The notes beneath the pieces were generated by a model. It saw only the letters and a program-made list of their open reading frames with translations. It searched no databases and was not told the origin of the DNA. From a virus: 64,000 bases of DNA. This document shows positions 62,189 through 64,000 of this stretch, in pieces. Positions within the stretch are counted from its first letter, which is position 1, and each line of letters opens with the position of its first letter. The stretch is taken from positions 2,732 through 66,731 of the IMG/VR virus record IMGVR_UViG_3300048574_000423, one strand, 5' to 3'. The position numbers and the translations under genes are program-made.

Positions 62189-63565
62189 TCATTTCGGAGA
62201 GTTGCTATCGCGCTTTGGTTTCCGGGCGTGTAGCCTTTTTTGTAGTTTCCCCCATGCGCGTTTTGTATCCCGATCTATCGATTCTCTTTCTCCAAAAATA
62301 CGCTTAGCTCTATCAACATAGCTCAGGAAATTGCCTTTTTTCATTTTGGCTGTGAACTTTCCGCTGTTTGATTTCTCATCTTTCCCATACCTGGAGTATA
62401 GACGATATATTCTGCTCATTGGTATTTTGTTGCCAAATTTCGTCCTCCCATGATTCTGAGATATAGTGTCTGCTTTTCGATACATGCGACCATAGTATTT
62501 AGAAATAGTTTTTGAACGAATGCGGATAGTAATCCCGTCAAAAGTGAACCCTAAATATGATATTGCATTGATGCGGTTTGCTGATGCGTTATCACACATC
62601 GCCTTGTTTGTAATGTTGCCTTCGCTATACTCATACACTTGCGTCTTTTGGGTCTCTAGTTTGAGTCCTGGGACTTTTTGAACTTCACTAAAAATAGTGG
62701 ATAACCGTTTGCCAAATTCATTTTCTTCGGAATATGGAAGAACAATAATAAAGTCATCACAATACCTTCGATATACGCCACCGAGATAACTTACATAATT
62801 ATTTAATGATTTATCTAAATCAATTAAGTAAACATTAGAAAATACCGCACTTATTGCCGATCCTTGCGGTATTCCATAGTCGTTGCTATTTGTAATAATA
62901 TGAGTGCGTTTGTATGACCGAAACTGATCGGGTGAGAAAACGCGCTCTAAACTATAAAACTCTTTGCGTGTCATCCCTTTGAATTCTTTGATAGAGTCCA
63001 AGTCCAAGTATGAATAGCGCGTAATACTCCGGAAAACCGAATACATGTCGTCAGGGAGTCTGTCTGCTCCAAGGAGCGAGCAAAGCATATTCTTAAGATA
63101 AGCGTGTGATATATTGTCAAAGTATCCTGTAAAATCTCCAATAATCACATGAGCATGAGCGATCCTTTTTATTGTATCGAAAGAATCCTTTGCAAAGTGT
63201 ATGTTGTTTCGGTGCATATTGTTTCGGTAAGCGATAGCACATTTATTTGTTCCGTCAGTTTTGACTCGGACGTTATATTTTTCATTAACAAGATAAGCAT
63301 AGTATTCGTATATATAACGATCAATGTGGCTTGAATACATAATATTACGCTCCTTGGGGGAATCGCGATTTTCTTGCTTCCCGGCAAGATATTTCTTCGG
63401 ATATTTATATGCAGTTTGTGTGTAGTGAATGAATGGATAAAAGGCATGTTTCGATATACTGTCAGGATTTTCGACAGTAGAATATACATTACGCCAATGA
63501 ATCCTGGCATCAAAATGAGGATACTTTTTGTACTTGTAAATCCTCTCGCGTAGCTTTTGATTCAT
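62189..63565 (-). CDS. drt2: Defence-associated reverse transcriptase, DRT type 2 (UG2)
   Basis: N-terminal YPHFD, ERNIMYSSHID, GDFTGYFDNI, GIPQGSAIS, YRRYCDD, YLGFTFDG. Standalone gene with a structured ~300-nt leader; RBS AGGAG. Confidence 0.85.
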   Translation of the reverse strand: MNQKLRERIYKYKKYPHFDARIHWRNVYSTVENPDSISKHAFYPFIHYTQTAYKYPKKYLAGKQENRDSPKERNIMYSSHIDRYIYEYYAYLVNEKYNVRVKTDGTNKCAIAYRNNMHRNNIHFAKDSFDTIKRIAHAHVIIGDFTGYFDNISHAYLKNMLCSLLGADRLPDDMYSVFRSITRYSYLDLDSIKEFKGMTRKEFYSLERVFSPDQFRSYKRTHIITNSNDYGIPQGSAISAVFSNVYLIDLDKSLNNYVSYLGGVYRRYCDDFIIVLPYSEENEFGKRLSTIFSEVQKVPGLKLETQKTQVYEYSEGNITNKAMCDNASANRINAISYLGFTFDGITIRIRSKTISKYYGRMYRKADTISQNHGRTKFGNKIPMSRIYRLYSRYGKDEKSNSGKFTAKMKKGNFLSYVDRAKRIFGERESIDRDTKRAWGKLQKRLHARKPKRDSNSPK

Positions 63566-63569
63566 CTTT

Positions 63570-63864
63570 GAAGCACTCCTTTGCCCAAAAATGAGAGACT
63601 CGCCGGTAAGTGCAGCCTACTTTGATCCGGCGAGTCCACGATTGAACAATCCGACCAAACCACTGAACATGAATAAGGCGGGATGGCTGCATCCGAAGTT
63701 GCCCTCGCGCACTTTCATACCTTGTGCTATACTGAAGGAGGGCTGCTCGATGATAATGCTGGCGACGCTATGCGCGCTCAACGCTTACCTCGATTTCGCC
63801 GGTCAAGTTCTGGTTAACTACTTGACAGACGCAATATACTACCCTTATGACAACTCATAAGGCA
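63570..63864 (-). ncRNA. DRT2-associated template ncRNA
   Basis: Starts just after a TGcTATAAT promoter. 5' hairpin 63843-63862, template 63726-63842, ACA at 63723-63725, 10-bp stem 63597-63636 and a 7-bp pseudoknot pairing. The 3' end is approximate. Confidence 0.8.
63726..63842 (+). other. neo: Predicted cDNA repeat unit of a Neo-like hidden gene (39 aa)
   Basis: 117 nt, stop-free in the frame AILKEGCSMIMLATLCALNAYLDFAGQVLVNYLTDAIYY. TATACT near the start, AAGGAGG-8nt-ATG, TTGACA near the end. Confidence 0.75.
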
Positions 63865-63869
63865 ACTTT

Positions 63870-63878
63870 ATTATAGCA
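63870..63878 (-). promoter_or_regulatory. Extended -10 promoter of the ncRNA-drt2 unit
   Basis: The minus strand reads TGcTATAAT, placing the start site near 63863-63864 at the base of the 5' hairpin. Confidence 0.7.
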
Positions 63879-63982
63879 TATGTTGGCATAATACAAAACC
63901 TACGGCCAAAGAAATTAACAAAAATTTACGTGATGCATTTAGAGAAAATGCGAGTTTTACTCTGGTATACCCGTCGCGGGAT

Positions 63983-64000
63983 GGCGTGTAATGATGCACC
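63983..64000 (+). repeat. Right copy of the 18-bp direct repeat (candidate att/terminal motif)
   Basis: GGCGTGTAATGATGCACC; may extend beyond the window. Confidence 0.6.

What the first reader, a model, noticed from the sequence alone, without database searches (positions are those of the whole stretch)
62189..63878. DRT2 reverse transcriptase with a fully predictable hidden gene: rolling-circle cDNA would assemble a promoter and a stop-free 39-aa repeat ORF
Seen: on the + strand (cDNA sense) upstream of the YCDD RT the order is TGT(63723-25; ACA in the RNA) | GC-TATACT(63728-33) - AAGGAGG(63735-41) - ATG(63750) ... TTGACA(63822-27) - 15 nt | perfect 8-bp hairpin CCTTATGA-CAAC-TCATAAGG (63843-62). 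The segment between the ACA and the hairpin is exactly 117 nt. Joined head-to-tail it gives TTGACA-17 bp-TATACT. One frame has no stop, (AILKEGCSMIMLATLCALNAYLDFAGQVLVNYLTDAIYY)n; the other two + frames contain stops. The genomic in-frame stop (TAA 63858-60) lies inside the hairpin that would not be copied. Established: Klebsiella DRT2 makes concatemeric cDNA by template jumping, creating a junction promoter and the toxic Neo repeat protein (40-aa unit). Inference: this is a prophage-borne, Clostridia-type DRT2 with a 39-aa, very hydrophobic Neo variant that no annotation would show. The system class is known; I cannot tell whether this variant has been described.
Basis: partly seen in the sequence, partly recalled or inferred. 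Interest (0 to 1): 0.95.

Follow-up and report, generated by a model that had tools for sequence, protein, structure and literature searches.

The report
Prophage DRT2 with hidden Neo gene
A reverse-transcriptase anti-phage system (DRT2) at the end of a prophage carries an RNA template that, copied head-to-tail in 117-base units, would build a promoter and an endless 39-residue repeat gene; the kind is already known, but this Firmicutes lineage seems to use a different short realignment signal from the Klebsiella model.

Summary
Every motif is at the stated coordinate. A 117-nt head-to-tail unit gives TTGACA-17 bp-TATACT, then AAGGAGG-ATG and one stop-free frame.

The RT is a full-length DRT2: PADLOC Drt2 6e-138, and solved Klebsiella Drt2 9c0i 1.8e-61.

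A stop-free 117-nt frame alone is common here, at 85% of windows. The weight comes from relatives. In 75 distinct Firmicutes DRT2 templates, with the junction chosen by direct-repeat homology only:
- 70 units are multiples of 3.
- 68 of those 70 are stop-free in cDNA sense, against 13 of 70 in RNA sense.

The upstream RNA is real. It has a covarying scaffold hairpin, a conserved pseudoknot and a 5' handle related to Rfam RT-6. RNA-library contigs from 7 runs (5 studies) cover only 63593-63845.

It fails the multiple-of-3 test in three clade lineages, and ACA is not invariant. An invariant AU (63835-63834), 8 nt after the handle, repeated as AUG (63718-63716), fits all 13 clade loci. It sits where ACA-1 sits in three Proteobacterial (Vibrio, Stutzerimonas) DRT2 ncRNAs of Tang et al.'s Table S1. 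Unit length and spacer are unchanged; the repeat ends ...DAIPC rather than ...DAIYY.

No concatemer junction was seen, and only assembled contigs could be examined. This is a new member of a known kind, with a variant realignment motif.

The parts
62189..63565 (-). DRT2 (UG2) reverse transcriptase gene, 458 aa, YCDD active site; GC about 37% against about 59% in the flanking prophage
   Evidence: PADLOC Drt2 6.2e-138; NCBIfam Drt2 382 bits, cut-off 390; PDB 9c0i Drt2 1.8e-61, residues 11-423; GC
63870..63878 (-). Likely promoter of the ncRNA/RT transcript: TGcTATAAT (extended -10) with a weak -35. The -10 lies at the same distance before the 5' hairpin in relatives
   Evidence: sequence read; conserved TATAAT before the hairpin; the consensus scan found no full sigma-70 match on this strand
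63591..63864 (-). Predicted DRT2 ncRNA: 5' handle, template, pseudoknotted scaffold. Both ends are approximate
   Evidence: Rfam RT-6 partial hit 63788-63864; MFE fold z -2.4; RNA-library contigs from 7 runs all within 63593-63845
63843..63862 (-). 5' handle hairpin (8 bp, 4-nt loop); it covaries among clade members
   Evidence: it is the first helix of Rfam RT-6
63834..63835 (-). Proposed donor (template 5' end): invariant AU at nucleotides 8-9 after the handle. This is the position equivalent to ACA-1
   Evidence: invariant columns A33 T34 in alignment A3; offset rule; AUUG at the same place in 58 other loci; ACA-1 at nucleotides 8-10 in ncRNAs printed in Tang et al. Table S1
63719..63835 (+). 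Proposed 117-nt cDNA/neo repeat unit, given in neo sense.
63822..63827 (+). TTGACA, the -35 of the junction promoter (UGUCAA in the ncRNA, conserved in most relatives)
63725..63733 (+). TGc + TATACT: -10 with an extended-10 TG. The TG is kept in the repeat only under the AU/AUG junction
   Evidence: TG before the -10 in all 10 clade loci
63735..63752 (+). AAGGAGG ribosome-binding site, 8 nt, then the ATG of the first neo repeat
63716..63718 (-). Proposed acceptor/realignment site AUG, in the loop of a 4-bp hairpin (63724-27 with 63709-12)
   Evidence: (helix 1)
63597..63636 (-). Scaffold hairpin, 10 bp. Its loop holds GGCUGCA (63611-17), complementary to UGCAGCC (63685-91): a pseudoknot
   Evidence: 100% of cells paired, 9 of 10 pairs covary; the pseudoknot core of 5 bp is invariant and does not covary
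63587..63595 (-). Invariant CUCAU followed by a U run: probable 3' end of the ncRNA
   Evidence: C139-T143 invariant; RNA contigs end at 63593-63605

Best explanation
This is a DRT2 anti-phage system carried as terminal cargo of a siphovirus-like prophage.

Shown by sequence and comparison:
- a Drt2-family RT;
- an upstream co-oriented ncRNA with a 5' handle hairpin, a 117-nt template and a pseudoknotted 3' scaffold;
- in cDNA sense, a template holding the order -10, SD, ATG ... -35.

Inferred by analogy with Klebsiella DRT2:
1. The RT copies the template up to the A that lies 8 nt 3' of the handle (63835).
2. The nascent ...AT-3' end realigns on the AUG (63718-16) just downstream of the -10.
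3. Copying resumes. This yields a concatemer of 117-nt units, 63719-63835.
4. Once double-stranded, each junction forms TTGACA-17 bp-TGcTATACT.
5. The transcript is translated from AAGGAGG-ATG into an endless hydrophobic repeat: 39 aa, GRAVY 1.06, MIMLATLCALNAYLDFAGQVLVNYLTDAIPCAILKEGCS. This arrests the infected cell.
For: Family: PADLOC Drt2 6.2e-138, with the next class at 7e-20. It aligns end-to-end to solved Drt2 9c0i at 1.8e-61.

ncRNA:
- RT-6-like 5' part; RT-6 reaches gathering score in 11 of 20 related loci.
- Scaffold hairpin with 9 of 10 pairs covarying, and a conserved pseudoknot.
- RNA-library contigs from 7 runs in 5 studies lie only in 63593-63845, none in the RT ORF.

Design, tested on 75 distinct templates with the junction chosen blind to reading frame:
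- 63 have a spacer of 17.
- 70 have a length divisible by 3, where about 25 are expected.
- 68 of those 70 are stop-free in cDNA sense, against 13 of 70 in RNA sense.

Junction:
- AU donor and AUG acceptor are present at the unit offset in all 13 clade loci (9 distinct sequences); the AU columns are invariant in the alignment of those 9.
- Shifts compensate in L004 and L088 (spacer 18) and in L090.
- All clade units have an SD, a start codon, a TG-extended -10 and GRAVY 0.45-1.06.
- In 58 other loci the repeat identity at the unit offset is 0.93/0.93/0.88/0.76 at nucleotides 8-11 after the handle, and 0.10-0.47 beside them.
- ACA-1 starts at nucleotide 8 in three Proteobacterial (Vibrio, Stutzerimonas) DRT2 ncRNAs printed.
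Against: - No concatemer junction was seen in 8 runs or in IMG/VR. Only assembled contigs could be examined, so this is weak.
- The homology in the window's clade is only 2-3 nt.
- In the window itself a 4-nt GUAU repeat at offset 119 is longer. It is absent in L001 and breaks the frame.
That allele also changes the invariant acceptor G (63716) and a clade-invariant A, so it may be decayed.
- Stop avoidance does not discriminate junction positions.
- NCBIfam Drt2 scores 382 bits, just under its 390 cut-off.
- A stop-free 117-nt frame is by itself common.
Confidence: 0.62

Rival explanations
1. Same DRT2/Neo system and the same 117-nt unit, but with the reader's junction. The RT runs to the base of the 5' hairpin (63842) and restarts 2 nt after the -10 (63726), leaving ACA uncopied. 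The repeat then ends ...DAIYY.
For: Same unit length, 17-bp spacer and open frame. The X1 soil allele 63725 T>A is harmless under this junction. The hairpin-to-UGUCAA distance is 15 nt in 12 of the 13 clade loci and 14 nt in L090.
Against: The rule gives 137, 128 and 128 nt in L004, L088 and L090. ACA is not conserved: it is AGA in L004 and AUA in L088. There is no complementarity between ...CTAC-3' and the restart site. The junction would drop the TG of the extended -10 that all clade members keep. In the experimentally defined Klebsiella-type RNA the template ends 7 nt before the handle, not at its base.
Confidence: 0.22
2. The + strand ORF is an ordinary small gene (ATG 63750 to TAA 63860, 36 aa, hydrophobic). 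It would be expressed from genomic DNA by the extended -10 TGcTATACT and terminated at the hairpin plus T run. That makes it a type-I-toxin-like peptide antisense to the RT leader, with no concatemer needed.
For: The genomic copy has an extended -10, SD, ATG, stop and a terminator-like hairpin on the + strand. The frame is open from 63591 to 63860.
Against: There is no -35 in the genomic arrangement. The perfect TTGACA lies downstream, inside the ORF, where only joining makes it useful. A monomeric gene gives no reason for 70 of 75 inferred units to be multiples of 3, nor for compensating shifts. The RT is a Drt2, whose solved relative makes concatemers.
Confidence: 0.06
3. The RT and ncRNA are active, but the product acts as non-coding DNA, or the locus is inactive. 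The coding look of the template would be inherited decoration.
For: Tang et al. state that Neo annotation was hard in divergent DRT2 clades and raise alternative mechanisms. Nothing experimental exists for this clade.
Against: Frame, length, SD, start and promoter spacing are maintained across templates that share little sequence, with units from 111 to 225 nt. This indicates selection on coding.
Confidence: 0.07

Closest known systems
Klebsiella pneumoniae DRT2 / Neo (Tang et al. 2024, doi 10.1101/2024.05.08.593200; Wilkinson et al. 2024, PMC12039810)
   Same: - Single RT gene with an upstream ncRNA.
- 5' handle hairpin, then template, then pseudoknotted scaffold.
- -10/SD/start at the template 3' end and TTGACA at its 5' end, giving a 17-bp junction promoter.
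- Unit divisible by 3 (120 nt there, 117 here; 117 is also the commonest length among Wilkinson's 42 homologs).
- Hydrophobic stop-free repeat.
- Template ends at the A 8 nt after the handle.
   Different: - There is no ACA-1/ACA-2 pair. An invariant AU, repeated as AUG, takes its place (AUUG/AUUG in most Firmicutes relatives).
- The junction splits the spacer differently: 8+9 here, and 6+11 in the Vibrio cholerae row of Tang et al.'s Table S1.
- The -10 carries an extended-10 TG.
- The system is prophage-borne in a Bacillota host.
- Nothing has been tested experimentally.
Rfam RF03027 RT-6 RNA (Weinberg et al. 2017, PMC5737381)
   Same: It is a hairpin followed by the conserved UUGUCAA upstream of RT genes. 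It matches 63788-63864 (E 2e-5) and reaches gathering score in 11 of 20 related DRT2 loci.
   Different: The window scores 35.3 bits, below the gathering score of 46.7. Its clade has 15 rather than 12 nt between the hairpin and UGUCAA. The paper gave the RT motifs no defined function and only speculated that they act in retrons or DGRs; here RT-6 reads as the DRT2 5' handle plus the -35 end of the template.
Firmicutes entries in Tang et al. Table S1 (e.g. Clostridiales bacterium KLE1615, Bacillus thuringiensis)
   Same: These are DRT2 loci with a predicted ncRNA, cDNA and Neo CDS columns filled in (the 'Neo identified' flag of the KLE1615 row was not seen). The KLE1615 ncRNA has the same handle-12 nt-UGUCAA layout as most of my loci.
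   Different: The window's clade motifs were not found in the stored part of that table, which is truncated. Their alignment-derived borders for KLE1615 copy AAT twice, giving a spacer of 20. The AUUG rule gives 17.
Telomerase repeat-addition (analogy drawn by Wilkinson et al.)
   Same: A template bounded 5' by a helix, with a short alignment repeat at both template ends that allows realignment.
   Different: The unit is 117 nt and the product is protein-coding. The enzyme is unrelated.

Membership tests
DRT2 (UG2) defence system | RT belongs to the Drt2 sequence family | tested here: met
   PADLOC Drt2 6.2e-138 over residues 7-451, with the next class at 7e-20. PDB Drt2 9c0i 1.8e-61 over residues 11-423. 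NCBIfam Drt2 scores 382 bits against a cut-off of 390, marginally below.
DRT2 (UG2) defence system | Intact polymerase active site (YxDD) | tested here: met
   YCDD is present. Y268, D270 and D271 are invariant in 30 homologs.
DRT2 (UG2) defence system | Co-oriented upstream structured ncRNA with a 5' handle hairpin and a pseudoknotted 3' scaffold | tested here: met
   Handle and scaffold hairpin covary. The pseudoknot core is invariant but does not covary. RNA-library contigs are confined to 63593-63845.
DRT2 (UG2) defence system | Template flanked by two ACA trinucleotides (ACA-1 copied, ACA-2 as alignment site) | tested here: not met
   There is no ACA at the template 5' end. The single ACA (63725-23) is not conserved in the clade. 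An AU/AUG repeat occupies the equivalent positions.
DRT2 (UG2) defence system | Head-to-tail joining creates a -35/-10 promoter with about 17-bp spacing | tested here: met
   TTGACA-17-TATACT in the window. Spacing is 17 or 18 in all clade loci. 63 of 75 family units have a spacer of 17.
DRT2 (UG2) defence system | Repeat length divisible by 3, with one stop-free frame preceded by an RBS and a start codon | tested here: met
   117 nt, with frame 1 open. Family-wide: 70 of 75 and 68 of 70.
DRT2 (UG2) defence system | Concatemeric cDNA is actually made | tested here: inconclusive
   No joints in the contigs of 8 public runs. The junction strings are absent from IMG/VR. Raw reads were not available.
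DRT2 (UG2) defence system | Neo repeat protein is toxic and the system defends against phage | not testable with these tools
   Needs experiments.
Rfam RT-6 RNA | Score at or above the gathering threshold | tested here: not met
   35.3 bits against 46.7. Relatives L005-L044 do reach it.

The most novel reading that the evidence does not exclude
Firmicutes DRT2 systems, whose 5' part is the orphan Rfam motif RT-6, build Neo genes without the ACA/ACA code. A fixed ruler ends the template at the A 8 nt after the 5' handle. A 2-4-nt AU(U)G repeat placed one unit length away directs realignment. The Neo mechanism would then extend to the clades that Tang et al. found hard to annotate. It would also give a simple rule for predicting hidden neo genes, here in a prophage.
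Probability: 0.6. Interest if true: 0.55.

Novelty: new member of a known kind. Interest (0 to 1): 0.5.

Why it matters
DRT2 genes encode a protein that exists in no genome annotation. Being able to predict it from sequence matters for cataloguing defence cargo of prophages.

This locus, read with about 75 relatives, suggests that the published ACA rule is a lineage-specific form of a more general rule: a fixed distance from the 5' handle plus a short repeat one unit away. It also gives a function to Rfam RT-6.

The two candidate junctions differ by 7 nt. One junction-spanning read from the expressed locus would settle which is right.

The ncRNA shows up alone in soil and sludge metatranscriptomes. 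This suggests it is an abundant stable RNA in nature.

Tried and rejected
1. Unit of 123 nt through the CCTTGTG/CCTTATG direct repeat (hairpin 3' strand copied). The frame stays open, but the promoter spacer becomes 23 and the repeat is absent in L002 and L003. Rejected.
2. Unit of 106 nt through the two TATACT copies. It is not divisible by 3 and the spacer is 6. Rejected.
3. Offset 119 through GUAU/GUAU, the longest repeat in the window. It breaks the frame and is absent in L001. Rejected.
4. Using stop avoidance to locate the junction. The open fraction is flat for every junction position from 0 to 12 nt, so it is uninformative.
5. Looking for concatemer joints in 8 public runs. None were seen, and only contigs could be examined.
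6. Exact search of both predicted junction strings in IMG/VR. No hits.
7. Searching Tang et al. Table S1 for the window clade's motifs. None were found, but the stored file is truncated.
8. Literature search for Firmicutes DRT2 work. Nothing beyond Tang et al..
9. Pfam and PADLOC on the two extra ORFs of L001. Nothing convincing.
10. Folding a multi-repeat Neo. Not attempted, because a concatemer is not a sequence the window encodes letter for letter.
Full report
**1. What is in the sequence**

The - strand ORF 62189-63565 encodes a 458-aa protein with YCDD.
- TGT 63723-25
- TATACT 63728-33
- AAGGAGG 63735-41
- ATG 63750
- TTGACA 63822-27
- an 8-bp hairpin 63843-62
- an in-frame TAA 63858-60

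The segment 63726-63842 is 117 nt. Joined to itself it gives TTGACA-17 bp-TATACT, with one frame free of stops.

**2. Is that more than chance?**

Not the open frame alone. A stop-free circular frame occurs in 85% of all 117-nt windows of this 64-kb window, and in 62% within the AT-rich RT gene. The case rests on the combination of features and on comparison with relatives.

**3. Family**

- PADLOC Drt2 gives 6.2e-138 over nearly the whole protein, and the next DRT class gives 7e-20.
- NCBIfam Drt2 scores 382 bits, just under its 390 cut-off.
- The protein aligns from residue 11 to 423 with the solved Klebsiella Drt2 (9c0i) at 1.8e-61. The next hit, a group II maturase, is at 3e-6.

The refuting outcome 'groups with retrons or another DRT class' does not occur.

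**4. Context**

- The record is an IMG/VR provirus of 67,677 bp, and the window is its bases 2732-66731.
- Upstream lie a tape-measure protein, a Sipho_Gp37 tail protein, an NlpC/P60 lysin and two large serine recombinases.
- GC falls from about 59% to about 37% across the RT gene.
- The nearest relative is L001, a Bacillota MAG whose RT is 88% identical. It shares the recombinase end and the DRT2 cassette. Its homology stops about 235 nt beyond the window end.

DRT2 is therefore terminal cargo of a mobile prophage.

**5. The ncRNA is real**

- Rfam RT-6 (RF03027) matches 63788-63864 on the - strand at E 2e-5, 35.3 bits, below its gathering score.
- The same family reaches gathering score in front of the RT in 11 of 20 related loci.
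- In nine distinct sequences of the window's clade, a 10-bp scaffold hairpin (63597-63636) is paired in 100% of cells, and 9 of 10 pairs show changes on both sides.
- Its loop is complementary to UGCAGCC at 63685-91. This pseudoknot core is invariant, so it is conserved but not proven by covariation.
- Contigs from seven RNA-library runs in five studies (soil, sludge, activated sludge) all lie within 63593-63845. None lies in the RT ORF or upstream of the promoter. A DNA run does cover the RT start.

Contigs cannot show strand or ends. Still, the pattern fits an abundant stable RNA of about 270 nt.

**6. Comparative test of the hidden gene**

I collected 160 related loci from genomes and metagenomes. 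In RNA sense nearly all carry the same order: hairpin, UGUCAA, a variable stretch, CCUCC, AUUAUA.

In one search the core from the -10 to the -35 has a length of 1 mod 3 and a single open frame in the same phase in nearly all loci.

I then chose the junction by the longest direct repeat only, blind to reading frame. Results for 75 distinct templates:

| Measure | Result |
|---|---|
| Spacer of 17 | 63 of 75 |
| Unit length divisible by 3 | 70 of 75 (about 25 expected) |
| Stop-free in cDNA sense | 68 of those 70 |
| Stop-free in RNA sense (control) | 13 of those 70 |
| Unit length range | 111 to 249 nt (111 to 225 nt among units with a stop-free frame) |

This is selection for a repeat-spanning ORF, as in the published DRT2 systems.

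**7. Where the junction is**

In the window's clade (WIN, L001-L004, L082-L090) that rule gives 137, 128 and 128 nt in L004, L088 and L090. ACA is AGA or AUA in L004 and L088.

Two things are invariant instead:
- AU at nucleotides 8-9 after the hairpin (window 63835-63834; invariant columns).
- AUG 9 or 10 nt after the -10 (63718-16).

Taking these as donor and acceptor gives, in all 13 loci, a length divisible by 3 and an open frame. Shifts compensate:
- When the acceptor lies at +10, the core length changes class (L004 and L088, spacer 18).
- In L090 the donor lies one nucleotide closer to UGUCAA.

Each resulting unit has TTGACA, a spacer of 17-18, a TG-extended -10, an SD, a start codon and GRAVY 0.45-1.06.

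In 58 other distinct loci the identity between the two template ends at the unit offset is 0.93, 0.93, 0.88 and 0.76 at nucleotides 8-11 (AUUG). It is 0.10-0.47 beside them.

In three Proteobacterial (Vibrio, Stutzerimonas) DRT2 ncRNAs printed in Tang et al.'s Table S1, ACA-1 likewise starts at nucleotide 8 after the 5' handle (my reading). Wilkinson et al. show that the handle docks in the RT fingers.

The likely rule is therefore a fixed ruler from the handle plus a short repeat one unit away.

For the window this keeps the 117-nt period and the 17-bp spacer. It moves the unit to 63719-63835, so the repeat reads ...LTDAIPCAILKEG... instead of ...LTDAIYYAILKEG....

**8. Evidence against my junction**

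- The homology is only 2-3 nt in this clade.
- The window has a longer GUAU repeat at offset 119. It is absent in L001.
- A soil DNA contig (X1, depth 3) has 63725 T>A, which creates TGA in the frame under my junction only. That allele also changes the invariant acceptor G (63716), and A63725 is itself invariant in the clade. It may be a decaying copy.
- Stop avoidance does not discriminate junction positions.

**9. What is not shown**

No concatemer junction was seen, in 8 runs (contigs only) or in IMG/VR. Concatemer synthesis, second-strand synthesis on infection, transcription, toxicity and defence are all inferred from the Klebsiella work.

**10. Novelty**

The kind is known. Tang et al. 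already list Firmicutes DRT2 loci with predicted Neo, such as Clostridiales KLE1615 and Bacillus. They also note that Neo annotation was harder in divergent clades.

What this locus adds:
- It belongs to a metagenome-only clade whose motifs I did not find in the stored, truncated part of their table.
- It lacks the ACA pair.
- Its 5' part links the orphan Rfam RT-6 motif to DRT2.

I rate it a new member of a known kind with a variant realignment motif. Interest is moderate.

Noticed in passing
window 63566-63831 versus L001: From UGUCAA to the RT start codon, the template and scaffold are identical or nearly so between the window and L001, while the RT proteins are only 88% identical. This points to strong constraint on the ncRNA/neo sequence, or to recent exchange of that segment.
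   Followed up: partly
window 63591-63595 and 63716-63718: The invariant 3' tail CUCAU of the ncRNA is complementary (CAU/AUG) to the invariant acceptor AUG. If the RNA ends there, it could prime the first round at the very site used for realignment. This would parallel the 3'-end priming shown for Klebsiella DRT2. RNA contigs end at 63593-63605.
   Followed up: partly
window 63725-63875, + strand: The genomic, unjoined copy already has an extended -10 (TGcTATACT), SD, ATG and a 36-aa ORF. It also has a terminator-like hairpin plus T run, which is the 5' handle read on the other strand. A monomeric peptide might be made at a low level without any reverse transcription.
   Followed up: partly
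window 63591-63860, + strand: The neo frame stays open for 89 codons, running back through the whole scaffold region. This may be chance in a 45% GC stretch. It was not examined in relatives.
   Followed up: no
X1 soil metagenome contig on window 63660-63994: This allele has changes at two clade-invariant ncRNA positions (63716 and 63725, the latter giving TGA in the neo frame) and at 63831. It may be a decaying copy.
   Followed up: partly
L001:4038-5884: The closest relative has two extra same-strand ORFs (404 and 179 aa) between the RT and the recombinase that the window lacks. They have no Pfam match, and only a weak PADLOC PDC-M50B hit at 6e-4.
   Followed up: partly
L003:4187-4260, L007:1708-1857, L012:1922-1994: tRNA genes lie within about 0.4-0.8 kb of DRT2 in several related loci. 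This suggests repeated carriage on elements that integrate at tRNA genes.
   Followed up: no
Tang et al. Table S1, Clostridiales bacterium KLE1615 row: Their alignment-derived cDNA borders copy AAT at both ends, giving a -35/-10 spacer of 20. The AUUG donor/acceptor rule gives 17 with the same reading frame.
   Followed up: partly
L062, L074, L075, L079: This sub-clade has a different 5' hairpin and overlapping -10 candidates. Its core length and open frame do not fit the spacer-17 rule. It may use another junction geometry.
   Followed up: no
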